Origin: Squalus acanthias
Lineage: Eukaryota
Reading direction: 5' to 3'
DNA length: 64,000 nt
Assembly (NCBI GenBank): GCA_030390025.1
Contig: CM059432.1
Coordinates: forward strand, 86,058,001 to 86,122,000
The notes beneath the pieces were generated by a model. That model did not search any database. It was not told the DNA's origin and was given only the letters and a program-made list of their open reading frames with translations. Below are positions 4,462 through 41,063 of the stretch, in pieces. The translations under genes and the position numbers were made by a program. Position 1 is the first letter of the stretch. The number at the start of each line of letters is the position of its first letter.

Positions 4462-6059
4462 TGCGTATAAATCAATATCAATGAGTCCAGGAATCCACAA
4501 GAGAAAGGCTTGGGCTGAATGGCAGCTTTGACAGCAGCTGCTATGAGGACAGCAGCAGAGGCGGCCAGTCGACCCGATCCCACTCATTGGACCAGCTAGC
4601 GTGGCTCATTGAAATCAACAAGCTCATTGAATCAAAATCGGACAATAGCAGCCGATCCCGTCGGAAGCGGCTCCGGAACCCGCCCACCATGCAACCAGAC
4701 TCCAAACCACCTCAGGAATTAAAATCGAGCCCTTTGTGTCTATCTTCACGGAAGAAGACGTAAAAAACTTCCCGGAAACAGTGGAGAACCAAGGGTCTAG
4801 CGAGAATGAGGAACTGAAAGATATTTGTACTAGTAAAAATTTAGTACTGGAGAAATTAATGGGACTGAAAGTCAATAAATCCCCTGGACCTGATGGCCTA
4901 CATCCTAGGGTTTTGAAAGAGTTCGCTATAGAGATAGTGGATGCATGGTTGTCATTTTCCAAAATTCCATAGTTTCTAGAACGGTTCCCACAGATTGGAA
5001 GGTAGCAAATGTAACCCCACTATTTAAGAAAGGAGGGAGAGAGAAAACGGGGAACTACAGACCAGTTAGCCTGACATCAGTAGTCGGGAAAATGCTAGAA
5101 TCTATTATTAAGGACGTGGAACAGGGCACTTCGAAAATAATAATAGGATTGGGCAGCGTCAACACGGATTTATGAAAGGGAAATAGTGTTTGACAAATCT
5201 GTTGAACTTTTTTGAGGTTGTAACAAGCAGAATAGATAACGGAAACCAGTGGATGTGGTGTATTTGGATTTTCAGAAGGAATTCGATAAGGTGCCACACA
5301 AGAGGTTATAAAACAAAATTAGGGCTCATGGGATTGGGGGTAATATACTAGCATGGATTGAGGATTGGTTAATGGACAGAAAACGGAGAGTAGGAATAAA
5401 CGGGTCATTTTCGGGTTGGCAGACTGTAACTAGTGGGGTACCGCAAGGATCAGTGCTTGGGCCTCAGCTATTCACAATTTATATCAATGATTTGGATGAG
5501 GGGACTAAATGTAATATATCCAAGTTTGCTGATGATACAAAGCTGGGTGGGAATGTAAGTTTTGAGCAGGATGCAAGGAGGCTTCAAGGGGATATAGACA
5601 GGCTAAGTGAGTGGGCAAGAACATGGCAAATGGAATATAATGTGGAGAAATGTGAAGTTATCCACTTTGGTAGGAAAAATACAAAAGCAGAAATGGTGAG
5701 AGAGATTGAGTAGACTAGGCCTATATTCTCTGGAGTTTAGAAGAATGAGATGTGATCTCATTGAAACATATAAAATTCTTACAGGGCTTGACAGGGTAGA
5801 TGCAGGGAGGATGTTTCCCCTGGCTGGGGAGTCTAGAACCAGGGGTCACAGTCTCGATAAGGGATCGACCATTTAGGACTGAGATGAGGAGAAATTTCTT
5901 CACTCAGAGGGTGGTAAATATTTGGAATTCTCTACCCCAGAGGACTGTGGAGGCTCAGTCGTTGAGTATATTCAAGACAGAGATCAATAGACTTTTGAAT
6001 ATTAAGGGAATCCAGGGATATGGGGATAGTGCAGGAAAGTAGTGTAGCGCAGCTCACCA

Positions 6060-7188
6060 CTCCCTGCTGTTTCCTCCTCTTGTCAGCTCTTTCCCCAGGG
6101 TTGAAAAGCTTGCACTGATTGATATGGAACCACTTAGTGCGTCGAGGCATTTTGACCGCATATACCATCGGACTTGCCCTATCCACGATACTGTACGGTC
6201 CCATGTATAGCGGTTCAAAAGTCCCAACCCTGGCGAAGTTTCTAACCATTACTTGATCTCTGACCTTCCACTCGTGGTGCCTCTGAGGCTCAAGCAATAA
6301 ACGATTTCTACGATTTTGCTTTCCCATGTTACTGGCAGCCTGCCAATGGATCTGTCTGAGATGCTCAAACAAATTCTTAACAAACCTGTCCCGGTTCACC
6401 TCTCTCAACTGACCTTCCGTGAGAACCGGGGCCAGTACATGGCTGGGCGTTCTCATGACCCTGCCAGTCACGAGCTCATGCGGGGAATACCCTGTGCTTC
6501 TAGACGGGCTGGCTCGGACCCCCATCAGAACTAACGGCAAGACCTCCGCCCATTTTCTAGGCGAGTCTCCCGTCTCCTTCCTATTCATCCGCTCCACAAT
6601 CCCCAATGACTGCGGGTTGTGTGCGACGTGCCATTTACCCTCTACACCTAGCATCTTCAGAGTCGCCTGCATGACTGCCCCTGTGAAGTGACTTCCCTGA
6701 TCGGACTCCACATACTGTGGTAGCCCCCACCTAGAGAACACTTCTCTCACTAGAATCCTTGCGGTCCCCAAAGCTGTGGCTGTTCGGCATGGGAAGGCTT
6801 CTACCCATTTAGAGAACACATCCACCAGGACCAGGCAGTACTTGTAACCCCCCTGTGCGGTGGGCAGCGGTCCGATATAATCAACCTGTATGGACTGCCA
6901 TGGTCCCTCCACTCTCCTCCTAGTGTGTCCCATGGATACCTTCCATTTCTGGGGGTCAGGGTTGTTTGCAGCACACACCAAGCAATCCGCGCAGAAGTCG
7001 CAGACGTCTTCCCTCAGTTGCGGCCACCACCCTGCCTGTTCCACCCGTTGCCAGGTGGTCTCCGGCCCGGGGTGCCCTGCTCCTGGATCCTCGTGGGCCA
7101 ACTGAAGGAATTCTCTCCGGTGCTGCTGCGGAACTACCCACTGTTCCCCTCTGAAAACCATCCCTTCCTTTACCGTAATACCTGCCAC
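6060..7188 (-). pseudogene. Integrase
   Basis: HHCC (AHEDPGAGH...CLVC), DDE triad (QVDYIGPLP, SDQGSHF, IVERMNR) and C-terminal GPY module. Confidence 0.93.
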
Positions 7189-7260
7189 TCCGTATGGACC
7201 CTCTACCTTATCTCCCTTAGCCAGCGTCTCCAGAACAGTCTTTAGGGCGGGATCCCGTGC

Positions 7261-8359
7261 CTAGACCATCTTTAGGTCCGGAGCCAATGCTACCCCTGCA
7301 CTCCCTTGGGTCCCACCTCTGTCTCTGATTGCTGCTACCAGACTCGACCCATATGGATCCCAAAACGTGCCCGTTCGAGCACCTGCTTTGGTCAGCACGT
7401 CGGCCTGCTGATTGCCCTCCGCACAGGGTTCTGCCTTAGAATGGGCCTTGTCTTTGTGGATATAGAAATCCCCCTGGGTTCCTATCGATGTTATGATCTG
7501 TTGCAACAATGGCTTGGTTGCTAGGGGTTTCCCGTCTGCAGATGTGAACCCGCGACGAGACCAAATGGCTAAATATTCTGTACACGAATTGCAAGTGAAC
7601 ATGCTGTCCGAGCAAATCGTGTAGGGCGTAGGGAACTCTTCGGGGTGGATAACCACATACACCACCGCCGACAGTTCCGCGTGCTGGGCGCTCATGGTGC
7701 TTGGGAGTTTAATGGCCTTGGCAATGCCTGCCTTTGGGTCAAAAATCCCGCATCCAGTGAGTCGCTCCCCGGCCACCACTGTACTGGACCCGTCTACATA
7801 GATCTCGCGGCCCATGGGATGGATCCCAGCCCGAAACCCTATGTCTACGTTCCATACCCCTTCAACAGAGCATTTGTGGACCACCCCTGGGTAGATAAAA
7901 TTTGCGGCGAGCTTGGGCTCACAGAGGCCTTTCACACTCAAATTCATCAGAAAGAGCAATAAAGTCCAGCGAGCAATGCGTGCACTGCTCACCGTGCCGT
8001 CCTTTATCCTCCCATCCAGAAGCATCTGAGTGGGCGTATGATGGGTTAAGAGAGTTATTGGGGACGCCCCCGTGAAGATTTGTGATCTCCTCACGGCCCA
8101 ATGTGTGGCAAGCAGGTGCCTCTCACAATTGGAGTACCCCCTCTCTACATCTGTGAGGATTCTTGATGAGTATACCACAGGCCTCAGCTTGCCATGCCAC
8201 TCCTGGAGCAGCACTGCAGGTCAAACTGTCCCCTGTGGCAGCTACCTCCAAAAAGAACTCCTTTCCCCCATCAATCGCTCCTAAAGCCGGTGCGGTCTGC
8301 AGATCTCTCTTCAGACGACTAAAAGCTGCCATGCAGTCCTCATCCCACTCCCAGCCCAC
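7261..8359 (-). pseudogene. Tether/connection domain (degenerate RNase H) followed by a retroviral-type RNase H
   Basis: RPVVYSSRILTDVERGYSNCERHLLA...ARIARWTLLL, then IYVDGSS...SAQHAELSA...ICSDS...WSRRGFTSADGKP...KAH...GNQQAD. Confidence 0.88.
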
Positions 8360-9755
8360 TCCCTTGTGGAGGAGCCGGAGTAGAGGAGCTGCCGTAGCGG
8401 CACAGTCCTCTATGAAATCCCTGCAGTACCCTGAGTCCCAGGAAGGATCTTACCCCCGTTACCGTGGTCGGGGCAGGTAGCTCCTGTACCGCCTTCCTTT
8501 TCGCCTCATCGATGGCCCTCTCCCCAGCACGCACAGTCAGCCCGAGGAATTTTACTTCCTGCTGGCCGATCTGTGCTTTCTTGGGATTAACCTTGAACCC
8601 AGCTTCCTTTAACAGACTCAGCAGCTCAGCCAACAGGGGGCCATGCTCCTCCCCCTCGTTGGAGAACAAAAGCAGGTCGTCCACGTACTGCACAAGCCGC
8701 TGCGGTCTGCTAAACCCTTTTAAACAGTTGGCCATACATTGGTGGAAAATAGAAGGACTGTTATGAAACCCTTGGGGAAGGCAGGTCCATGTGTACTGCT
8801 GACCCTTGAAAGTGAATGCGAACTTATACTGGTCCTCCCTTTTGAGAGGGATAGACTAGAATCCGTTCGAAATGTCCAGCACCGTGAATGTTTTCGTGGA
8901 TGCTGGGATACTCCCGATCAGGTCGGCTACGGCTGCGACGGTGGGGGCACAGGCTGGGATGTTCTTGTTAAGAACCTGATAGTTCACAGTGGCTCTCCAC
9001 GAATTGTCCGGTTTCCTAACCGGCCAAATCGGAGAGTTCACATGCGTCGCTATGGGTATCAACACACCCTGCTCAACCAATAATCCCAATGCCATCTCTA
9101 AATCCGCCTCTGCCTCTCTGGGGAAGTTGTACTGTTTCTGTGGTCGGGCCATGGGGTCTCCTTCTACTCTGACCTCCACCCCTATTACCCTCCCACAGTC
9201 GTGCTTGTGTGTAGCGAATGCCGCGAGGTTGGCTCGCACATCCGCTATGTACTCCGCCGGTGTAGAAGTGACCAAAAGTTCAAGGTCATAACTACCCTTG
9301 GGCTTCATCGTACACACGGTTCCCTTGCCTTGCTTCCCTGGTATAACTACCACCTCCTTCTCCTTTCCCGTGCATACTGCCCCCCAAAGACAGTGATTCC
9401 GGAAATCCACCAATATCTTGTGGGCCAGTATGAATTCTGCCCTCAAAATGCCTATTCCCTCCCGCTCCCACCGCATCAGGACACATTTCCACTCCGTATG
9501 GAGTGTACCCAGATCGATGGCTAGTGGGATGGAGAAAGACCCAGCCTGTTCGTTCCCTGTGAACCCTACTAAGTTATATGGGACCCCGTTTGATAGAGGT
9601 GATGTGGTCGGGTTATCCGCATAGACAATGGTGCTTGTAGCTCCAGTGTCCAGCAGATAGGTCCCTTGCACCTTCTCCACCCCCATCTTCACGCACGGTC
9701 TCTTCCAAGCATCATAACTTAGTGGGCACAGGTAAACGGGCTGAGAAGCCCCTAG
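8340..9755 (-). pseudogene. Aspartic protease and reverse transcriptase
   Basis: YLLDTGATSTIV; NSPIWPVRKPDNSWR; VLDISNGF; LPQGFHNSP; LVQYVDDLLL; VKFLG. Stop at 8856-8858 and frameshifts. Confidence 0.92.
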
Positions 9756-12650
9756 TCATTGGTCGGGATTGTTCGGGGCGGATGGGAGTACGCTGCCGCG
9801 TCCACCCTGCCCTGCCGGAAAGACTGCGCGGCGAGCAGCCACTAATACCGCGAACGGACCAGTGCTGCTTCCTGCCACAGCTGCGGCTTTCTGCACTGGT
9901 GCTGGAGGATCCCCTTTCCCGCTCCTTTTGTCAGAGACTGGGCAGTCTTTCCTCCAGTGCCCTTTACTCCCGCACCCATAACAACCCTGCTTCTTCTCTG
10001 AGCTACCCCCCTCCTGGCGCCACTCTCGTCTAACATTGCCTCCACCAGGCTTTAACTCGTGTACTCTGCCCTTTTGGTTTGTCATCCTCACCCCTACCAT
10101 TCTTAGAGAGAGTTAACTGCCGGATCTCACACTCGTCTGTGGTCTGGGGATCCCTGGAATCGAACCACCCCTCTGCTTTGGCCTTGATCCTGGGCAGGCT
10201 GTTCGCCACCAGGGTCCTCAGCCAATGAGCCCTAGGCTCCCGCTGCAGCTGCGCCCGGTTGGGCACCCCCGCACAGGCACTCCAGTAGACGGGCCAAAGC
10301 CTGTCCGCGAAAGCCTGCGGTGCCTCCCCAGCTGACTGCAGTGTCCTTTCCACTCGGGAGAAGGGACTTCCATCATTGAGGCCCATAGCCTCTAGGATGT
10401 CATCCTTTATCCCCTCTAACGTACCCTGCCCCCTCTTGCTACCCGCTGAGAGCAACTGGTACAACCTACTATCCAGGGAAAATAAAAGTAATTTGGCTGT
10501 CTCAGCTTCGTTGCAATTATTGATCCCCCCCCCCCACCTGCTCCACATCCGTAAAATGGACAGATAGGTCCCCTGTGCTGGTCAGTTTGGTCAGGTTAGA
10601 GACCATTGCCTGCAGCTGGGGGGTTGTATATGGGACCACGAAGTCACTCTGCAGTGCTCCTTGCTCTTGACCGTCTACGGGCGCACCGTATTTCCGCTGC
10701 CGGACAGGGCACATGGGTCCTGGTCCCGGCCCTTCGGGCGGTGGTCGAGCGTCCTCCTCTGCCTCAGTCCTCCATATCTCCCTCTTGCTCTTCCTCATCT
10801 ACCCAGGCCATTCCCGGAGCTACCAAGCAGACCATCCCTTTGGCCTTAGAGCATCGGTCAAATTCCGGATCTGCTCCTGGCAAAGGACCATGATTACCCG
10901 TATCAAACCCTCCAGTGCTGGCGACTCTGTATTGTAAGGGGTTTTTGTCTCGGGCTTATTTGTAGGTCAGCCAGTTATGTTTTCCTGGACTGTCCTTGCC
11001 CGCTGTGCGGTTGCGAATCGCTATCCCCTTATTAGTTCTGAGCCCAGGACTTATCAAGCGGCAATAAGGACAAACGAACAAACCCGTGGATTGGTGCGAG
11101 GAAAACCAATGTTTATTTAACAGAGATGAAACATAACATGTCAATCTTAACTTCGGTATAAACGAGGGAAATGACAGTAGAACAATACCTCACCCCTCCC
11201 AACCCCACTTTACTAGCTAAGTTAGACTCTTGAGGACCAGGGATAATGCTCACCAAACGAATCCTTTGACAGTTGAGGATATGGTTTAAAGTCCTTTTAA
11301 GTAAAAAGTTTCATAAGGCCCTTGTGCCTCGAGGTGTTTGATGGTCACTGGAACCGTTGCTCTGGTTCCTTGCGTGTCGGTCTGTTTCTGGAGCTGCTGG
11401 CCTTCTTTGTTGAACGGTCTTGTTTCTCTTGAACTGTGTACTGGAGAACTCCTGTGCTTCAGCTGTCCTGCTTGTGGCCTCTCTGTGTAGAACTCCTGCT
11501 TGTTCCAGCACAGGTCTCTGTAGCCCCCGGCTTGTAGAACTCGTCTCTCTCCCCCTCCGGCTTGTTCCAGTCTAAAGTTATACTGTTCGATTGTTCCTTA
11601 TTTGGCCGCCAAATCTTCCCAGTGCTTTGTTTAATTCTGGTCGGCTCGTTAAGGTAGTTAACTTTTAATGGCAGGAGATGGCCTTTAACGATATTAAATA
11701 TTTGTTAAGTGGAGGATGATTGCTGGTCTGATGGTTGTTCATTTGTGTTGCCTTTACTTCTTTGTATAAATGCTAAACAGTTTGATGGGGCTGGAGATAG
11801 GTCGAATATACAACATTGTCTGTAGAGGCCAGCCTCGCCTCCTTTGGCAGCCTCTGAGGTCTGTTTAAAAATGTTTTAAAATGTCCCTGGTCCAATACAC
11901 TCAATTGGTTTTAAAATGTCCAAAGCCCCTTTTTCTTAGGGTCTCTCTCTTTTCCTCTGAGTCTTTTGGGGGTCTGGGAATTTCGCAACTCTCTTACAGA
12001 CCTGGGCATGTCACCTTGCCTGCTGTTTTTGCAGGGCCCTGGTTTCTGTTCAATGTCGCAGGCTTCTGCCATGAGGTCTAGAAGCCACTTTGTCCAGGGT
12101 ACCCCTTATTAATAACTCTGGGGAATGTGGGAATTTTGAGAACCCTACAGTATGCCACCTGAATATCCTTTAACTGCTCTCCCAGCACCTTTACCTCACT
12201 CGACAAGCGAGCGTTCTCCTCCCTAACCACCCTTTCATTCCCCTTTGCCTCAGTTACCTGGCATTGCAGGAACTCCTTATGGTTACGGAAGGTTTCCTCC
12301 TGGCTTATTCTTCCCTGCTTCTCCTCCCTTAGCTCCGTGCATAACCTGCTCCCTGCTACAGCCCTTGCGTCTGACTGTGCCTCGGACTCCCTGAGCTCTG
12401 CCTCTAACTTCGCAACCTGCTTATCTAGCAGTTGGACTTGTCTTTGTAGACAGACAAGCCATATCGCTTTTTCAGTGCTGCGCTTATGCTCCTTGCCCTC
12501 CGTCCATTCTGCCGCTGCGTCCACCAGATGCTCAGCACGCAACAAGCCTAGCACCCACTTCTTAGTGATGTTAACCTTCTTAAACACATATGAAGAAATC
12601 CTTTCCTCCATTTGGGATCTTTCGCCAGAAGCGCTGTCCATGACTGATTT
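9756..12650 (-). pseudogene. gag, interrupted by a solo LTR at 10933-12149
   Basis: Coiled-coil N-terminal ORF 12078-12686 rejoins as DIQVAY|RVAST after removing the insertion; capsid-like ORF 10030-10548; single zinc knuckle CYGCGSKGHWRKDC. Confidence 0.8.
10933..12149 (-). mobile_element. Solo LTR, family B (1217 bp), inserted in gag
   Basis: TGTAAGGG...CCCTACA termini; 4-bp TSD GTAT (10929-10932, 12150-12153); minus-strand AATAAA near 11112-11117. Confidence 0.85.
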
Positions 12651-12667
12651 ACACTCCTTTAACCCAG

Positions 12668-12685
12668 GTCCTGCCACGGTCGCCA
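12668..12685 (-). promoter_or_regulatory. Primer-binding site, probably tRNA-Arg(TCG)
   Basis: TGGCGACCGTGGCAGGAC, 5 nt downstream of the LTR. Complementary to the recalled vertebrate tRNA-Arg(TCG) 3' end GTCCTGCCGCGGTCGCCA with one G:U pair. Confidence 0.75.
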
Positions 12686-12690
12686 AGAGA

Positions 12691-13817
12691 TGTAAGCGGT
12701 TTTGATCCTAGCCCAATTGCTAGACGGACGGTTCGAATCGCCCCCGCCTTACGAAAGTTCTATACCCGGGAATTATTATTCAGAGTGTAAATGAAATAAG
12801 TCACGGACAGGAATGCTTCGGTGAAAAATCGTACTTATATTTATTTGGTCTAACATACACTGGCTAAAACATGCACTACTAAACGAAATTACTGTCTCTG
12901 TGGAGAATAAAAATCCAGGTTACAAACAACATACATACAGTACCCAACTGGGGACTATGACAAGCAGTAATTCACTTGTTGCTGTGGTGGACTCTAATTC
13001 CACCCCTACCAACGAATTACCCAGTCGCATAAGCCCCTTTGCCTGGCTGAACCAAATGAAGCTCCCACCCCGGAATAGCCCAAAAGCTTCACTTCTGAGA
13101 AAAACTCTGAGCCCTCTGGTTACCTGCTTGGGACACTCGAGACCATGCTTACCACCACTCTTGATCGCTCCGCTTAGCTGCTTCTTCCTCTGGTACTACT
13201 TCTTGTTAGGTCGATCTTGGTGCAGCAAGAGAGAGAGAGAATGGCGGGAAAGGGTCTATCTTTATAGGAGTCTCGCTACCCCTATCTTTCCCGCCAATCT
13301 TTAAAATCCTTTTGTTTCTAAGCACTCCGGTGCTTAATCAGTGATGGGTCATCCTCAGACCCATGAGTATTCCGTGATTGGACTAAAGGCCCTAAGTCTG
13401 GGACATCTCTCGGTCTTTGTGTTGGGGAAAAACTGGCTCCTCTCCGGCTGGCTAGGCTAGTGGGTTCATTGTTCTGCTTCTCTTCTGAGATGGAGGTGAG
13501 AAGTGCTTTTGCATATTAGAGTGGCTTTCTAATAGGTTCAAGTTCAACGGGTGCCTCAGGGTCCTCAGCCCCTTTGTCAATGGCCCCCCTTCCTTTTTCC
13601 AGGACTGTCGGGCAAACCCATACATTCGGGATGACTGACAGGTCTTTTGTCACAGCCAACTGCCATGCGTTCTCTGGAGTTTTAACAAACCAGTTTTTCA
13701 CATATCTGCACAGGGTGATCCCATCACAGGGAAAATACCCTCAGAAAAATCCCATAAAGTCCACAAAATATACTCGACTGAGTCCATTCTTCAAACAGAG
13801 ACTTTGCGATCTCTTCA
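12691..13817 (-). repeat. 5' LTR, family A (1127 bp)
   Basis: TG...CA termini; minus-strand TATAAA at 13261-13266 and AATAAA at ~12840-12845; close homologue at 39275-40291. Confidence 0.93.
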
Positions 13818-14158
13818 GTGGAGATGAAGTAGAAGATCAGCCATGATCTTATTCAAAGGACCAAATGGTCTACTCCTGCTCCTATTTCTTAAGTTCTTAT
13901 GTTTCTGCCTATGCTGTGTAAGAATAATCCAGGTTAGTTTCCAGTTTTTCCTTATGCAGAACCGCCTCCACTTGCCAATTTGTCCCTGACAACCTAGCAA
14001 GGATTATAGACTTGCTTTGTAGTGGGGAAAATGGGCCACAACCATCATCCTACAAGTTTTGCACTATGGGACAGAAGATTTTGTCAATTGCAATGCAGAA
14101 ATAAAATTTCAGTATACACGCTGTTTGCATCTTTTATAAACTTTAAATAAAACATATT

Positions 14159-20848: not shown

Positions 20849-21199
20849 GTAAGAAATCTATTTTTGCTGAATACTCATAATATGGTTTGGGTTTTTACAG
20901 TGCACATTATAAAGCCAAGTTATGTACTACTGGATTTTATTTTTTAAGCATAATTTGTTGCAAAATTATTTTTTTTGCCCTGACTAATAAAAAGCCTTCC
21001 ACTGCAGTATGTGGGGGTTATGTTAAGGAGTGCTGTGCATTGTAGATGTAGTTTAATGCAAATGATGTACTGCAATAGTTTTAAGTCACTAGCATATATT
21101 GGTGCATTTGTTTCTGCTCATCATTTACCCAAATAGTGCAGGATCTGTGCAGGATTTATACTGAAAGACTATGTGTTTTGGGTGACAACAGTTGACCCT

Positions 21200-24053
21200 G
21201 CAAAGTCCTCCTCACCAACATCTGGGGACGTGCCAAAATTGGGAGAGCTGTCCCACAAATTAGTCAAGCAACAGCCTGACAAAGTCATACTAACAGAATC
21301 ATACCTTTCAGCTAATGTCCCAAACTCCTCCATCACCATCCCTGGGTATGTCCTGTCCCACCGGCAGGACAGACCCACCAGGGGTAGCGGCACAGTGGTA
21401 TACAGTCGGGAAGGAGCGACCCTGGGAGTCCTCAACATTGACTCCGGACCCCATGAAGACTCATGGCTTCAGGTCAAGCATGGGCAAGGAAACCCCCTGC
21501 TGATTACCACCTACCGCCCTCCCTCAGCTGATGAATCAGTACTCCTCCATGTTGAACACCACTTGGAAGAAGACCTGAGAGTAGCAAGGGCACAGAATGT
21601 ACTCCAGTGTCCATCATCAAGAGAGGCTCGGTAGCACCACTACTGACCGAGCTGGCTGAGTCCTGAAGGACATAGCTGCCAGTCTGGGCCTGCGACAAGT
21701 GGTGAGAGAACCAACACGAGGGAAAAACCGACTTGACCTTGTCCTCACCAATCTACCTGTCGCGGGTGCATCTGTCCATGACAGCATTGGTAGCAGTGGC
21801 CACCGGACAGTCCTTGTGGAGACGAAGTCCCATCTTCACACTGAAGACACCCTTCATCGTGTTGTGTGGCACTACCACCGTGCTAAATGGGATAGATTCA
21901 GAACAGATCTAGCAGCTCAAAACTGGGCATCCATGAGGCGCTGTGGGCCATCAGCAGCAGCAGAATTGTATTCCACCACAATCTGTAACCTCATGGCCCC
22001 GCATATCCCTCACTCTACCATTACCATCAAGCCAGGGGACCAACCCTGGTTCAAGGAGGAGTGTAGAAGAGCATTCCAGGAGTAGCACCAGGTGCACCTA
22101 AAAATGAGGTGCCAACCTGGGGAAGCTACAACACAGGACTACATGCATGCTATAAAGTGGAAGCAACATGTTATAGACAGGGCTAAGTGATCCCACAATC
22201 AACGGATCAGATCAAAGCTCTGCAGTCCTGCTACATCCAGTCATGAATGGTGGTGGACCATTAAACAACTAATGGGAGGAGGAGGCTCCCTGAATATCCC
22301 CATCCTCAATGATGGTGGAGCCCAGCACGCGAGTGCAAAAGACAAGGCTGAAGCGTTTGCAACCATCTTCAGCCAGAAGTGCCGAATGGACGATCCATAT
22401 CGGCCTCCTCCTGAGTTCCCCACCATCACAGAAGACAGTCTTCAGCTAATTCGATTCACTCCACGTGATATCAAGAAACGGTTGAGCGCACTGGATACAG
22501 CAAAGGCTATGGGCCCCGACAACATCCCGGCTGCTGTGCTGAAGACTTGTGCTCCAGAACTAGCCGCACCTCTAGCCAAGCTCTTCCAGTACAGCTACAA
22601 CACTGGCATCTATCTGACAAAGTGGAAAATTGCCCAAGTATGTCCTGTCCACAAAAAGCAGGACAAATCCAATCTGGCCAATTACCGCCCCATCAGTCTA
22701 CTCTCAATCATCAGCAAAGTGATGGAAGGTGTCATCGACAGTGCTATCAAGCGGCACTTACTCACCAATAACCTGCTCACTGATGTCCAGTTTGGGTTCA
22801 GCCAGGACCACTCGGCTCCAGACCTCATTACAGCCTTGGTCCAAACATGGACAAAGGAGCTGAATTCCAGAGGTGAGGTGAGAGTGACTGCCCTTGACAT
22901 CAAGGCAGCATTTGACCGAGTGTGGCATCAAGGAGCCCTAGTAAGACTGAAATCAGTGGGAATCGGGGGGGAAACTCTCCACTGGCTGGAGTCATACCTA
23001 GCACAAAGGAAAATGGTTGTGGTGGTGGTTGGAGGTCAATAATCTCAGCCCCAGGACATTGCTGAAGGAGTTCCTCAGGGCAGTATCCTAGGCCCAACCA
23101 TCTTCAGTTGCTTCAACAATGACCTTCCCTCCAACATAAGGTCAGAAATGGGGATGTTTGCTGATGGCTGCACCGTGTTAAGTCCCATTTGCAACTCCTC
23201 AGATAATGAAGCAGTCCATGCCTACCTGCAACAACACCTGAACGACATTCAGGCTTGGGCTGATAAGTGGCAGGTAACATTCGTGCCACACAAGTGCCAG
23301 GCAATGACTATCTCCAACAAGCAAGAGTCTAACACCGCCCCTTGACATTCAATGGCATTACCATCGCCGAATCCCCCACCATCAACATCCTGGGGGTCAC
23401 CATTGACCAGAAACTTAACTGGACCAGCCACATAAATACTGTGGCAACAAGAGCAGGTCAGAGGCTAGGTATTCTGTGGCGAGTGTCTCACCTCCTGACT
23501 CCCCAAAGCCTTTCCACCATCTACAAGGCACAAGTAAGGAGTGTGATGGAATACTCTCCACTTGCCTGGATGAGTGCAGCTCCAACAACACTCAAGAAGC
23601 TCGACACCATCCAGGACAAAGCAGCCTGCTTGATTGGCACCCCATCCACCACCTTAAACATTCACTCCCTTCACCACCGGCGTACCATGGCTGCAGTGTG
23701 TACCATCTACAAGATGCACTGCAGCAACTTGCCAAGGCTTCTTCGGCAGCATCACCCAAGCCCACGACCTCTACCATCTAGAAGGACAAGGGCAGTACCA
23801 CCATCTCCAAGTTCCCCTCCCAAGTCACACACCATCCTGACTTGGAAGTATATCGCCGTTCCTTCATCGTCGCTGGGTCAAAATCCTGGAACTCCCCTCC
23901 CCTCCCTAACAGCACTGAGGGAGTACCTTCATCACACGGACTGCAGCGGTTTAAGGCGGTGGCTCACCACCTCCTTCTCGAGGGCAATTAGGGATGGGCA
24001 ATAAATGCTGGCCTTGCCAGCGACGCCCAGATCCCATGAACGAATAAAAAAAA
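21200..24053 (+). mobile_element. Non-CR1 APE-RT LINE, clade not determined; copy 1
   Basis: APE (ILTESYL, LDLVLTN, SGHRTV), RT (ALDIKAAFDRVWH, GVPQGSILGP, MFADG), 3' end cgaataaaaaaaa; frameshifted. Confidence 0.85.
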
Positions 24054-24054
24054 C

Positions 24055-25140
24055 TAACAATGTAACAATATCAACAGAAAATGCTGGAAATATTCAGCAG
24101 GTCAGGCAGCATCTGTGGAGAGGGAAACAGTTAACGTTTCAGGTCGGTGACCTTTCATCAGAACTGGAAAATGTTACAGATGTAACCGGTTTTAAGCAAG
24201 TACCGAGACTGGGTAAGGCGGGGATGGAGGGGGCGCAGAGAAAAGAACAAAAGGATAGGTCTGTGATGGGGTGAAAGGCAGGAGTGATTAAATGACAAAA
24301 TGGATGATGGTGCCAGGCAAAAGACTCTATTCTCAGTTTCTCCGTCACATCTGCTCTAATGCAACCTTCCACACCAGTGCTTCCGATACATCTTCCTTAG
24401 TCCTCAACTGAGGATTCCCCTCCACCGTGGTTGACAGAACCCTCAATCTTGCCTGTCCCATTTCCTGCACTTCTGCCTTTAGCCCTTCCCCTCCTTCCAA
24501 GAACCACAATAGGGTTCCCCTTGTCCTCACTTTCCACCCCACCAGCCTCTATATTCAACAGACCATCCTCCACCATTTCCGCCACCTCCAGCGTGATCCC
24601 ACCACCAAACACATCTTCTCCCCCACTCCCCTTTCGGCATTCCGAAGGGACTGTTCCATCCGCAACACCCTGGTCCACTCTTCCATCACCCCAAACACCT
24701 GTTCCCCTTCCCATGCAAGCGCAGGAGATGCAACCATCTGCCCTTTCACCTCCTCCCTTCCCACCATCAAGGTGAAACAGCGATTTACTTGTACTTCTTT
24801 CAAGTTAGTATACTGTATTCTCTGCTCACGATGCAGTCTCCTCTACATTTGGGAGACCAAACACAGATTGGGTGATCGCTTTGCTGAACACCTCCGTTCA
24901 GTCTGCAAGCGTGACCCTGAGCTTCCGGTTGCTTGCCATCTTAACTCTCCGTCCCACTTCCACTCTCACTCTGACCTCTCTGTACTTGACCTCCTGCACT
25001 GTTCCAATGAAGCTCAATGGATGATCACTGCTCCCATTTTTTCGGACAGCAGGTGCTGGTAATGATTCTGCTGTTGCCATTTACACCTCCTCTAGACCCA
25101 TCTTTTGTTTCTTTACATTTTCCAGTTCTGATGAAAAGGC
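24055..25140 (+). mobile_element. Penelope-like element 3' part (GIY-YIG endonuclease) preceded by an inverted pseudo-LTR
   Basis: ORF 24427-25062: RVPLVLTFHP...FTCTSFKLVYCILCSRCSLLYIWETKHRLGDRFAEH...PVACH. 24060-24320 is an inverted copy of the terminal repeat. Confidence 0.85.
24128..24166 (-). ncRNA. Minimal type I hammerhead ribozyme motif
   Basis: CAGTT-CTGATGA-A-AGGTC(ACC)GACCT-GAAA-CG-TT-AACTG on the minus strand. Confidence 0.7.
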
Positions 25141-36768: not shown

Positions 36769-37481
36769 ACCACGATTGATGAAGTCATGAAGTGCTGACT
36801 GTTTAATGAACCCTGCCATAGCTATGCAATAGGTCACTGTGTTTCGCAAAACTTCTATGCTTCAGTCTTACACTCTTGTTTTGCAAACTCCTGAGCTTCA
36901 TCCCCTTACGCCCCCACCTCAATGAATTTCGAACTCGGCATGACGCTGAGCTCTTTTTCTGTCGCCTTCATCTCTGTGCCCACTTCGTTGGCCAGGAGTC
37001 TTTCCCCCGCACAGCTGTCAGAATTCTTGTTCTACCTGGACCCCTCCCTCTGGCCTCTTATCCTCTCTAGATCTTTTCATTGTGAACTGCTGGCGTGACA
37101 TCGGCCGTCTCAATTTCACTGCTCCCCTCACTCACTCCAACCTACCTCCCTCTGAACTTGCAGCACTCCGTTCTCTCAGATCCATTGTCATTAAACCTGC
37201 TGACAAGCGTGGTGCTGTTGTTGTTTGGCGAACTGACCTCTACCTTGTGGAGGCTGAATGCCAACTCTCTGACACCTCCTCCCTCTGGATCATGACCCCA
37301 CTACCGAACATCAAGCTATCGTCTCCAAGACTGTCACTGACCTCATCCGCTCTGGAGAACTTCCCTCCACGGCTGCCAAGTAGCATTGTTGCCCAACCCC
37401 GCACAGCCCGCTTCTACCTCCTTCCCAAGATCCACAAATAGGACTGCCCTGGTAGACCCATCGTTTCAGCCTGTTCTTGCT

Positions 37482-40400
37482 CCAAGGAAACCTCCTGCTG
37501 ATTACCACCTACCGCCCTCCCTCAGCTGATGAATCAGTACTCCTCCATGTTGAACAACACTTGGAAGAAGCACTGAGAGTAGCAAGGGCACAGAATGTAC
37601 TCTGGGTGGGGGATTTCAATGTCCATCACCAAGAGTGACTTGGTAGCACCACCACTGACTGAGCTGGCCGAGTCCTGAAGGACATAGCTGCCAGTCTGGG
37701 CCTGCGACAGGTGGTGAGAGAACCAACACGAGGGGAAAACGTACTTGACCTTGTCCTCACCAATCTACCTGTCGCAGATGCATCTGTCCATGACAGCATT
37801 GGTAGCAGTGACCACCGCACAGTCATTGTGGAGACGAAGTCCCGTCTTCACACTGAGGACACCCTCCATCGTGTTGTGTGGCACTACCACCGTGCTAAAT
37901 GGGATAGATTCAGAACAGATCGAACAGCTCAAAATTGGGCATCCATGAGATGCTGTGGGCCATTAGCAGCAGCAGAATTGTATTCCACTACAATCTGTAA
38001 CCTCATGGCCTGGCATATCCCTCACTCTACCATTGCCATCAAGCCAGGGGACCAACCCTGGTTCAATAAGGAGTGTAGAAGAGCATGCCAGGAGCAGCAC
38101 CAGGCGTACCTAAAAATGTGGTGCCAACCTGGGGAAGCTGCAACACAGGACTACATGCATGCTTAAAAGCGGAAGCAGCATGCTATAGTCAGGGCTAAGC
38201 GATCCCACAATCAACGGATCAGATCAAAGCTCTGCAGTCCTGCCACATCCAGTCGCGAATGGTGGTGGACCATTAAACAACTAACGGGAGGAGGAGGCTC
38301 CATGAATATCACCCTCAATGATGGCAGAGCCCAGCACGTGAGTGCAAAAGACAAGGCTGAAGCGTTTGCAACCATCTTCAGCCAGAAGTGCCAAGTGGAT
38401 GATCCACATCGGCCTCCTCCTGAGCTCCCCGCCATCACAGAAGCCAGTCTTCAGCCAATTCGATTCACTCCACGTGATATCAAGAAACAGCTGAGCGCAC
38501 TGGATACAGCAAAGGCTGTGGGCCCCGACAACATCCCGACTGTCGTGCTGAAGACTTGTGCTCCAGAACTAGCCGCACCTCTAGCCAAGCTCTTCCAGTA
38601 CAGCTACAACACTGGCATCTATCCGACAATGTGGAAAACTGCCCAGGTCTGTCCTGTCCACAAAAAGCAGGACAAATCCAATCCAGATAATTACCACCTC
38701 ATCAGTCTACTGTCAATCATCAGCAAAGTGATGGAAGGTGTCGTCGATAGTGCTATCAAGCAGCACTTACACACCAATAACCTGCTCACTGATGCCCAGT
38801 TTGGGTTCTGCCAGGACCACTCGGCTCCAGACCTCATTACAGCCTTGGTCCAAACATGGACAAAAGAGCTGAATTCCAGAGGTGAGGTGAGAGTGACTGC
38901 CCTTGACATCAAGGCAGCATTTGACCGAGTGTGGCATCAAGGAGCCCTAGCAAGACTGAAGTCAATGGGATTCTGGGGGAAAACTCTCCACTGGCTGGAG
39001 TAATTCCTAGCACAAAGGAAGATGATTGTGGTGGTTGGAGGTCAATCATCACAGCCCCAGGACATCACTACAGGAGTTCCTCAGGGCAGTGTCCTAGGCC
39101 CAACCATCTTCAGCTGCTTCATCAATCGCCTTCCCTCCATCATAAAGGTCAGAAATGGGGATGTTCGCTGATGACTGCACAGTGTTCAGTGCCATTCGCA
39201 ACTCCTCAGATAATGAAGTAGTCCATGCCCGTATGCAGCAAAACCTGGACGACATTCAGGCTTGGGCCGATAGGTGTAAGCGGTTTTGATCCTAGCCCAA
39301 TTGCTAGACGGACGGTTCGAATCGCCCCCGCCTTACGAAAGTTCTATACCCGGGAATTATTATTCAGAGTGTAAATGAAATAAGTCACGGACAGGAATGC
39401 TTTGGTGAAAAATCAACTTATATTTATTTGGTCTAACATACACTGGCTAAAACATGCACTACTAAACAAAATCACTGTCTCTGTGGAGAATAAAATCCAG
39501 GTTACAAACAACATACATACAGTACACAACTGGGGACTATGACAAGCAGTAATTCCCTTGTTGCTATGGTGGACTCTAATTCCACCCCTACCAACTAATT
39601 ACCCAGTCGCATAAGCCCCTTCGCCTGGCTGAACCAAATGAAGCTCCCACCCCGGAATAGCCCAAAAGCTTCACTTCTGAGAAAAACTCTGAGCCCTCTG
39701 GTTACCGGCTTGGGACACTCGAGACCACGCTTACCACCACACACAGTCGGTCTCGATCGCTCCGCTTAGCTGCTTCTTCCTCTGGTACTTCTTGTTAGGT
39801 CGATCTTGGTGCAGCGAGAGCGAGATGGTGGGAAAGGGTCTATCTTTATAGGAGTCTCGCTACCCCTATCTTTCCCGCCAATCTTTAAAATCCTTTTGTT
39901 TCTGAGCAGTCCGGTGCTTAATCAGTGATGGGTCATCCTTAGACCCATGTGTACTCCGTGATTGGACTAATGGCCCTAAGTCTGGGACATATTTCGGTAT
40001 TTGTGTTGGGAAAAACTGGCTCCTCTCCAGCTGGCTAGGCCAGTGGGTTCATTGTTCTGCTTCTCTTCTGAGATGGAGGTGAGAAGTGCTTTTGCATATT
40101 CTGGATGACTGACAGTTCTTTTGTCACAGCCAACTGCCATGCGTTCTCTGGAGTTTTAACAAACCAGTTTTTCACATATCTGCACAGGGTGATCCCATCA
40201 CAGGGAAAATACCCTCAGAAAAATCCCATAAAGTCCATAAAATATTCTCGACTGAGTCCATTCTTCAGACAGAGACTTTGCGATCTCTTCATAGGTGGCA
40301 GGTAACATTCGTGCCACAAAAGTGCCAGGCAATGACTATCTCCAACAAGCGAGCATCTAACTACCACCCATTGACATTCAACGGCATTACCATCGCCAAA

Positions 40401-41063
40401 TCCCCCACCATCAACTTAAGGGGGTCACCATTGACCAGAAACTTAACTGGACCAGCCACATAAATACTGTGGCATCAAGAGCGGGTCAGAGGTTGGGTAT
40501 TCTGCGGCGAGTGTCTCACCTCCTAACTCCCCAAAGCCTTTCCACCATCTACAAGACACAAGTAAGGAGTGTGATGGATTACTCTCCACTTGCCTGGATG
40601 AGTGCAGCTCCAACAACACTCAAGTAACTCGACACCATCCAGGACAAAGCAGCCCACTTGATTGGCACCCCATCCACCACCTTAAACATTCACTTCCTCT
40701 ACCACCGGCGCACCATGGCTGCAGTGTGTACTATCTACAAGATGCACTGCAGCACCTCCCAAACCCGCAACCTCTACCACCTAGAAGGACATGGGCAGCA
40801 GGCGCATGGGAACACCACCACCTCCAAGTTCCCCTCCAAGTCACACACTATCCTGACTTGGAAGTATATCGCCGTTCCTTCATTGTCGCTGGGTCAAAAT
40901 CCTGGAACTCCCTCCCTAACAGCACTGTGGGAGTACCTTCACCACACGGACTGCAGCGGTTCAAGAAGGTGGCTCACCACCACCTTCTCAAGGGCAACTA
41001 GGGATGGGCAATAAATGCTGGCCTTGCCAGCAACGCCCACATTCCATAAACGAATAAAAAAAA
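37482..41063 (+). mobile_element. Non-CR1 APE-RT LINE; copy 2, carrying a solo LTR
   Basis: Closely similar to 21200-24053 (ORFs 37711-38166, 38302-39003, 40658-41014); same A-rich 3' end. Confidence 0.87.
39275..40291 (-). mobile_element. Solo LTR, family A (1017 bp)
   Basis: Homologous to 12691-13817 except for an indel of about 110 bp; TGT...TCA termini; 4-bp TSD TAGG (39271-39274, 40292-40295). Confidence 0.95.

What the first reader, a model, noticed from the sequence alone, without database searches (positions are those of the whole stretch)
6043..13817. Lokiretrovirus-like provirus: dual RNase H, foamy-like RT/IN, but CCHC gag
Seen: a tether domain followed by a retroviral-type RNase H, LDISNGF and QYVDDLL in RT, DYIGPLP in integrase, a GPY module, one CCHC knuckle, a tRNA-Arg-like PBS, a 1.1 kb LTR and 4-bp TSDs. 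Known: typical Gypsy elements have one RNase H; retroviruses and lokiretroviruses have tether plus RNase H; foamy gag lacks CCHC. Inference: a basal retrovirus-sister lineage in a probable chondrichthyan, possibly an undescribed family.
Basis: partly seen in the sequence, partly recalled or inferred. Interest (0 to 1): 0.75.

Follow-up and report, generated by a model that had tools for sequence, protein, structure and literature searches.

The report
Shark snakehead-like retrovirus fossil, not Loki
This is a broken, one-LTR retrovirus fossil in a probable shark genome whose enzymes group with snakehead-retrovirus-like elements already catalogued in skate, whale shark, frogs and coelacanth, not with lokiretroviruses, and its group likely branches near the base of the ordinary retroviruses.

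Summary
The anatomy is real, the label is not. On the minus strand, 13817 to 6043, lie one 1127-bp LTR, a primer-binding site, gag (coiled coil, capsid, one CCHC, split by a second solo LTR), protease, RT, a catalytically dead tether, an intact second RNase H and an integrase with GPY. Env and the 3' LTR are missing from this copy. RT and RT+tether trees place it inside the canonical retroviruses. They reject grouping with lokiretroviruses (p-AU 0.018, 0.0015) or Gypsy (0.022). Its kin are SnRV-like 'clade Huo' ERVs. Xu et al. 2018 deposited a skate RT fragment about 82% identical (le_er_ERV4) and a whale-shark Gag with the same motifs and one CCHC (rh_ty_ERV2). Still open and of interest: the group keeps a tether and integrase closer to Loki than to SnRV, it may be a basal grade rather than part of one 'Huo' clade, and gag ends in a UGA-CUAG readthrough context. 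Earlier scan notes reached an SnRV-like reading for other proviruses in this genome. New member of a known kind; interest 0.3.

The parts
12691..13817 (-). 5' LTR (LTR A), 1127 bp, TG...CA; TATA-like TATAAA at about 13261-13266 and AATAAA at about 12840-12845
   Evidence: ends defined by the solo copy
12668..12685 (-). Primer-binding site, 5 nt after the LTR, starts TGG; likely tRNA-Arg(TCG) (tRNA sequence recalled)
   Evidence: sequence; paper search for it found nothing
12150..12641 (-). Gag N-terminal part from ATG 12641; predicted coiled coil
   Evidence: ORF; ESM Atlas look-alikes are generic coiled coils with low recognition score; contigs join it to the rest of gag
10933..12149 (-). Nested solo LTR B of another family, 1217 bp, TG...CA, GTAT/GTAT duplication, inserted in gag
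   Evidence: contigs in 3 of 4 runs skip 10929-12149
9759..10932 (-). Rest of gag in four frame pieces (frameshifts near 10780, 10550 and 10070): acidic/proline-rich linker, capsid, nucleocapsid with one CCHC at about 9939-9986
   Evidence: Atlas look-alikes Retrotrans_gag 0.92; motifs shared by eye with rh_ty_ERV2 Gag
9752..9758 (-). Single TGA between gag and protease, same frame, followed by CTAG: likely readthrough site
   Evidence: UGA CUAG described as readthrough-prone; no stable downstream fold (z -0.14 and 0.71)
9350..9755 (-). Aspartic protease (LLDTGA at about 9656)
   Evidence: Pfam RVP E 0.005
8399..9116 (-). Reverse transcriptase; in-frame stop at 8856-8858 and frameshift near 8435
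7927..8257 (-). Tether (degenerate first RNase H, catalytic acids lost); frameshift near 8220
7369..7812 (-). Second RNase H with D-E-D-D intact
6043..7260 (-). Integrase: HHCC, D,D(35)E, GPY near 6200. Preceded by an in-frame stop at 7261-7263, carries a short in-frame deletion after the catalytic Glu, and its frame runs into the flank without a stop
6039..6042 (+). Left target-site copy GTAG
13818..13821 (+). Right target-site copy GTGG
39275..40291 (-). Solo LTR A copy, TAGG/TAGG duplication, about 97% identical, lacks 109 bp; inserted in a LINE

Best explanation
This is a dead, 3'-truncated endogenous retrovirus of the snakehead-retrovirus-like ('clade Huo') group, in a probable shark, which likely replicated like an ordinary retrovirus. 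Shown: LTR, primer-binding site, gag-pro-pol order, dual RNase H, HHCC/DDE/GPY integrase, 4-bp target duplications, and RT inside canonical retroviruses. Inferred: transcription from LTR A; Gag from ATG 12641; Gag-Pol by in-frame readthrough of UGA-CUAG; priming by a host tRNA-Arg; the second RNase H degrades the RNA while the tether is only a linker; the integrase makes the 4-bp duplication. This copy then lost everything after integrase, most simply by a deletion between an internal ...CGCTACA and the LTR end ...CGCTTACA that left the target duplication in place; integration from that internal end would give the same sequence. It was later hit by LTR B and by stops and frameshifts. The family spread as many copies and solo LTRs. 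Whether it carried env is not shown.
For: RT tree: Loki 100/100 and Gypsy 100/99 are separate clades without the window (same picture in the 77-row quick mixture tree). RT+tether: inside retroviruses 96/84 and past the foamy-like row 98/93. AU tests reject Loki (0.018 RT; 0.0015 RT+tether), Gypsy (0.022) and the foamy-like row (0.018; 0.007). RT identity: SnRV 46%, frog/coelacanth/eel-type kin 50-54%, Loki 31-36%, Gypsy 29-31%. Published kin in Xu 2018 S2 Data: le_er_ERV4, 112 of 136 RT residues identical by eye; rh_ty_ERV2 Gag with matching capsid motifs, one CCHC and coiled-coil-like coding upstream. Rh_ty_ERV2, Nan_par_ERV7, An_ro_ERV1 and Ca_mi_ERV1 are listed in the Clade Huo part of S2 Fig beside Snakehead retrovirus. 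Contigs run on past 6043 by 113 and 414 nt that are not in the window, so the missing 3' part is peculiar to this copy.
Against: Env was not seen. Monophyly with SnRV is not recovered: SnRV groups with epsilon/gamma-type rows (87/94 RT, 96/93 RT+tether), and the clade is neither found nor rejected (p-AU 0.35, 0.071). Tether (31-37% vs 24%) and integrase (43% vs 32%) are closer to Loki than to SnRV. le_er_ERV4 itself is not among the tree labels, and I read that figure only as a text list. The 'Huo' region of that tree also holds sequences later called Loki. The reference set had no true foamy virus, ERV-L or class II retrovirus. The stop at the gag-pro border could be a mutation of this copy.
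Confidence: 0.85

Rival explanations
1. A lokiretrovirus (or Loki/Odin sister), the first in cartilaginous fish, with the coiled-coil ORF as its smc gene.
For: Dual RNase H. Tether and integrase are closer in identity to Loki than to SnRV. A coiled coil precedes capsid, as in Loki smc-gag. The NCBI name of the nearest shark protein is NYNRIN-like, as for Loki proteins.
Against: Loki rows form a starred clade without the window in the RT, RNase H, tether and integrase trees. AU rejects the union. Loki RT has CPFGY..SPAEFNIFLHK, the window has CLPQGFHNSP. The coiled-coil piece hit no fetched Loki protein.
Confidence: 0.04
2. A recombinant: SnRV-type RT joined to a Loki-derived integrase or RNase H by domain swapping.
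For: Identity pattern differs between domains. Domain replacement is documented for retroviruses (PMC7947760).
Against: In the integrase and RNase H trees the family does not join the Loki+Odin-like clade (100/99 without it); it sits in an open polytomy with its frog and coelacanth kin, and SnRV is a long branch. Slow evolution from a shared ancestor explains the pattern without a swap.
Confidence: 0.08
3. The family is an env-less, retrovirus-derived retrotransposon that copied itself inside the germ line (Odin-like way of life). This concerns lifestyle and is compatible with the SnRV-like placement.
For: No env in this copy. An env-less SnRV-like element was reported from a frog transcriptome (PMC4131045, passage).
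Against: At least 414 nt of unseen sequence follow integrase in other copies and do not map to LTR A. Ca_mi_ERV1-type kin were defined by a downstream Env (PMC4422223).
Confidence: 0.25
4. An ordinary Gypsy/Metaviridae element or a foamy-like ERV.
For: Capsid looks like Retrotrans_gag. Best PDB integrase match is foamy.
Against: Dead tether plus second RNase H. AU rejects Gypsy (0.022) and the foamy-like row (0.018, 0.007). CCHC is present.
Confidence: 0.03

Closest known systems
le_er_ERV4, little skate (Xu et al. 2018, PMC6001957, S2 Data)
   Same: RT fragment about 82% identical (112 of 136, counted by eye): same family or a close sister
   Different: Only a short RT consensus was deposited, with no LTR, gag or description seen, and it is not among the S2 Fig labels
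rh_ty_ERV2, whale shark, and Ca_mi_ERV1 (likely CmiERV lineage I of Han 2015, PMC4422223); 'Clade Huo'
   Same: Capsid motifs, one CCHC then protease, coiled-coil-like region upstream (rh_ty_ERV2); LDISNGF / LPQGFHNSP / QYVDD RT motifs (Ca_mi_ERV1)
   Different: More distant families; lineage I has Env, not seen here; rh_ty_ERV2 is printed with gag and protease in one translation, while the window has a TGA between them
Snakehead retrovirus (SnRV; P0028 matches the SnRV RT row)
   Same: RT 46%, LDISNGF motif, dual RNase H; arginine-tRNA primer and Gag coiled coil (both recalled from Hart et al. 1996, not read)
   Different: Tether 24% and integrase 32% only; not recovered as one clade with the window family; SnRV has env and accessory ORFs
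Lokiretroviruses and Odin (PMC7947760, PMC9040795)
   Same: Dual RNase H, well-kept tether, NYNRIN-like integrase (40-43%), coiled coil before capsid
   Different: RT 31-36%, different RT motifs, separate starred clades in all four domain trees; F-like Env not testable here

Membership tests
Lokiretrovirus | RT in the Loki clade, sister to canonical retroviruses | tested here: not met
Lokiretrovirus | Tether plus second RNase H | tested here: met
   shared by all retroviruses, so not diagnostic
Lokiretrovirus | RNase H and integrase in the Loki+Odin clade | tested here: not met
   Loki+Odin-like 100/99 without the window; deeper order unresolved
Lokiretrovirus | Env like mononegavirus F protein | not testable with these tools
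   region missing from this copy; no genome held; no locus fetched
Lokiretrovirus | smc-like ORF before gag (some members) | tested here: inconclusive
   coiled-coil look-alikes only; no hit to fetched Loki proteins
Odin retrotransposon | RT motifs TRLPFGYVNSPAEWNIF and (F)VDD; sister to Loki | tested here: not met
   motifs compared by eye; one Odin-like protein (P0077, my label) stays apart from the window in the RNase H, integrase and tether trees; no Odin RT row in the RT trees
Ty3/Gypsy (Metaviridae) | One catalytically intact RNase H; RT within Gypsy | tested here: not met
Foamy viruses / FLERVs | RT groups with foamy viruses | tested here: not met
   AU 0.018 and 0.007 against one foamy-like fish row identified by motif; no true foamy row available, so the test is partial
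Foamy viruses / FLERVs | Gag without CCHC (recalled) | tested here: not met
   one CCHC
SnRV-like / clade Huo ERVs | Pol closest to SnRV and to published Huo members | tested here: met
SnRV-like / clade Huo ERVs | One clade with SnRV | tested here: inconclusive
   not recovered, not rejected: p-AU 0.35 and 0.071
SnRV-like / clade Huo ERVs | Arginine-tRNA primer site, Gag coiled coil (SnRV features, recalled) | tested here: inconclusive
   site and coiled-coil-like ORF present; tRNA match and SnRV features from recall, paper not held
SnRV-like / clade Huo ERVs | env after integrase, two LTRs | not testable with these tools
   copy truncated at 6043; contigs run on but their sequence was not returned

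The most novel reading that the evidence does not exclude
The shark, frog, coelacanth, eel and turtle ERVs around this element are not a side branch of one 'Huo' clade. They are the earliest-branching grade of non-foamy retroviruses, slow-evolving, and keep the ancestral Loki/Odin-type tether and integrase with an orthoretroviral RT, and here a UGA-CUAG readthrough for Gag-Pol. They would be the best living picture of the first orthoretrovirus and a candidate source of the domesticated NYNRIN integrase.
Probability: 0.35. Interest if true: 0.6.

Novelty: new member of a known kind. Interest (0 to 1): 0.3.

Why it matters
As one more degraded SnRV-like ERV it matters little, though it gives LTR, primer site, target duplication and gag-pol border for a family known only as an RT fragment. 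It also shows that dual RNase H, a coiled-coil Gag and a NYNRIN-like integrase do not diagnose lokiretroviruses. The wider group may matter more. The Loki and Odin trees, as far as I read their taxon lists, represent it by SnRV alone, a long branch. Adding these slower-evolving relatives could change where the root of orthoretroviruses lies and how many integrase or RNase H replacements must be assumed.

Tried and rejected
No host assembly is held, so two-LTR copies could not be sought. Locus searches found nothing of the family: viral contigs 0; metagenomes 0 of 201 and 2 of 14 candidate stretches, at 24-32% identity, of which the one I read (L001) is Gypsy-like. A capsid homologue search gave 0 of 834 candidates. 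A single-sequence AlphaFold model of the capsid piece was useless (pLDDT 41), so no fold search was run. Rfam: 0 matches. No stimulatory structure after the gag stop. No RNA holder was listed among 24 runs; X17 and X18 are only guessed to be RNA, so nothing is claimed on expression. Contig depth was not used as copy number. The loose end at 6043 was not among the rows shown, so the sequence after integrase stays unknown. The careful 77-row mixture tree did not finish; only its quick version is cited, and the careful trees use LG+G4 on 33-42 rows that I chose from about 225 fetched proteins, dropping multi-copy concatenated Gypsy hits and near-duplicates. The purine-rich run before 6043 was rejected as a polypurine tract: it lies in the integrase frame and no LTR follows. 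My first boundaries for LTR A (12682) and LTR B (10961) were wrong and were corrected. LTR A and LTR B share no significant alignment (best E 0.17), only similar last bases. A 'Huo-like' set including P0187 and P0190 was rejected as one clade (p-AU 7e-7), but those two labels are my guess. Sequence look-ups in the scan's notes returned nothing. The NYNRIN paper gave no passage on source lineages, and NYNRIN itself was not in any tree.
Full report
1. What is there. The element lies on the minus strand from 13817 to 6043. LTR A is 12691-13817 (1127 bp, TG...CA). Its ends are fixed by a solo copy at 39275-40291, which has a perfect TAGG duplication and 31 mismatches in 1007 aligned bases. Five bases after the LTR an 18-nt TGG-starting primer site follows (12668-12685); I read it as tRNA-Arg(TCG) from recall, and a paper search for it found nothing. 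Gag starts at ATG 12641 with a coiled-coil-like part (weak). A second solo LTR (B, 10933-12149, GTAT/GTAT) interrupts it; contigs in 3 of 4 runs skip exactly this stretch. Capsid (Atlas look-alikes Retrotrans_gag) and one CCHC follow. One TGA separates gag from protease in the same frame. Pol holds protease, RT, tether, second RNase H and integrase with HHCC, D,D(35)E and GPY. It is broken by stops at 8856-8858 and 7261-7263 and by frameshifts near 8435 and 8220. The tether lacks the catalytic acids that Gypsy RNase H keeps; the second RNase H has them all.

2. Ends. The element splits the 3' end of a CR1 LINE, with GTAG on the left and GTGG on the right; an intact CR1 copy in the window reads GTGG once, and empty-site joints occur in 4 of 4 runs. 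There is no env and no 3' LTR: the integrase frame runs into the flank. Two contigs align down to 6043 and go on for 113 and 414 nt that are not in the window (direction inferred from the table's strand and record coordinates). The loss is therefore specific to this copy. The element ends in ...CGCTACA and the LTR in ...CGCTTACA, so either a microhomology deletion or integration from an internal end explains the intact duplication (inference).

3. Relatives. The nearest proteins are an unnamed 1145-aa Pol (75%) and a Heptranchias perlo 'NYNRIN-like' protein (76%; integrase 88%), which supports a shark-type host. Twenty of 24 listed runs, under several organism codes, hold part of the stretch. 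A search of 1.84 billion representatives with the natural Pol ranked frog, Xenopus and coelacanth proteins first, with turtle, Loki and epsilon-type proteins further down. A search seeded with SnRV added more of the same group. Anchors: P0028 is SnRV and P0012, P0015, P0113, P0200 and P0207 are Loki by motif match to the published RT alignment; P0064 is walleye epidermal hyperplasia virus 1 by name. The other group labels are mine.

4. Trees. In the RT tree of 40 rows, Gypsy (100/99) and Loki (100/100) are clades without the window, which lies among retroviruses; the 77-row quick mixture tree agrees. RT+tether (39 rows) gives retroviruses 96/84, past the one foamy-like row 98/93, and SnRV with epsilon/gamma-type rows 96/93, leaving the window's group as an open basal grade. 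AU tests reject Loki (0.018, 0.0015), Gypsy (0.022) and the foamy-like row (0.018, 0.007), and do not reject a clade with SnRV (0.35, 0.071). In the integrase and RNase H trees Loki plus an Odin-like protein form a 100/99 clade without the window, and deeper order is open; the tether tree also keeps the Loki rows (95/83) and the Odin-like row apart from it. Against a simple reading: the tether is 31-37% identical to Loki but 24% to SnRV, and integrase 43% versus 32%. SnRV is a long branch there, so retained ancestral similarity is the simplest cause. Limits: no true foamy, ERV-L, class II or Odin RT rows, and the careful trees used LG+G4, which is open to long-branch pull.

5. What is in print. 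Xu et al. 2018 (PMC6001957; passages, section 7, S2 Fig as text, S2 Data rows cut at 400 letters) deposited le_er_ERV4 from little skate, 112 of 136 RT residues identical to the window by my count, and rh_ty_ERV2 from whale shark, whose Gag shares capsid motifs, has one CCHC and runs into the protease. Na_pa_ERV7 and an_ro_ERV1 match the frog and eel-type proteins of my trees by motif. These, with Ca_mi_ERV1, are listed in the Clade Huo part of the figure beside Snakehead retrovirus; le_er_ERV4 is not among the labels. Han 2015 (PMC4422223, part 1 of 2) describes an SnRV-like lineage I in elephant shark defined by a downstream Env. An SnRV-like ERV clade is also named in PMC4977317, PMC12193657, PMC4131045 and PMC8922424 (passages). 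PMC7947760 (parts 1-2 of 4, supplement passages) lists no cartilaginous fish among Loki hosts, and five shark and chimaera genome rows carry no asterisk. PMC9040795: parts 1-2 and one alignment file read. PMC10699275 (part 1, passages) describes a catshark element that groups with foamy-like ERVs. PMC12440569, PMC9447858 and bioRxiv 2023.10.17.562709: passages only. Hart et al. 1996 was not held; SnRV's arginine primer and Gag coiled coil are recalled. Ten searches showed no paper describing this family's LTR or layout. Repbase and subscription journals were not searchable, figures were not visible, and the cut supplement rows or closed bioRxiv supplements may hold env or full copies of it.

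6. How it likely worked. It was an ordinary retroviral cycle: LTR promoter, tRNA-primed reverse transcription, the second RNase H active and the first a linker, and an integrase leaving 4-bp duplications (shown at three insertions in the window, one of them by LTR B). Gag-Pol was likely made by readthrough: the stop is UGA followed by CUAG, a context described as readthrough-prone (bioRxiv 2021.04.18.440353, one passage), with no stable structure downstream. Intact frog Pol proteins also begin just before the protease site, which fits a natural break there, but a coelacanth relative has gag and pol in one frame. Whether the family had env is unknown. Earlier scan notes report SnRV-like proviruses with F-like Env elsewhere in this genome; I read them after forming my view and did not test them.

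7. Verdict. Observation confirmed; interpretation partly supported. It works like a canonical retrovirus and belongs with the SnRV-like/Huo ERVs as published, with monophyly of that group unsettled; it is not a lokiretrovirus. New member of a known kind, interest 0.3. Boldest reading not excluded: the group is the earliest-branching grade of non-foamy retroviruses, keeping Loki/Odin-type tether and integrase (probability 0.35, interest 0.6).

Noticed in passing
window 10933-12149: Solo LTR B ends like LTR A (…AAAACCCCTTACA vs …AAAACCGCTTACA) and also makes 4-bp duplications, so it may come from a related ERV family. Contig joints 6169-10933 and 12146-6166 suggest LTR B also inserted into the integrase gene of another copy.
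   Followed up: partly
window 9752-9758 (minus): Gag stop in a UGA-CUAG context, in frame with protease; possible readthrough without RNA structure.
   Followed up: partly
P0010 (unnamed Logan/ENA cluster), with turtle P0093: Full-length 1193-aa Pol of the same wider group with RT and integrase catalytic residues lost but the frame open: possibly a domesticated host gene.
   Followed up: no
P0003 cluster (Aquarana catesbeiana, Lithobates pipiens): 24 cluster members, many with full-length 1207-1218-aa Pol: the frog relatives look recently active.
   Followed up: no
window 21137-24004 and 37617-41001: Two copies (93-95% identical) of an endonuclease/RT LINE; the second carries the solo LTR A.
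   Followed up: no
window 24412-25062 and 36950-37441: Fragments that look like Penelope-type elements (GIY-YIG-like and RT-upstream motifs; label from recall).
   Followed up: no
window 12641-12668: Only 26 nt between primer site and Gag ATG, a very short leader; one contig lacks 68 nt including the primer site.
   Followed up: no
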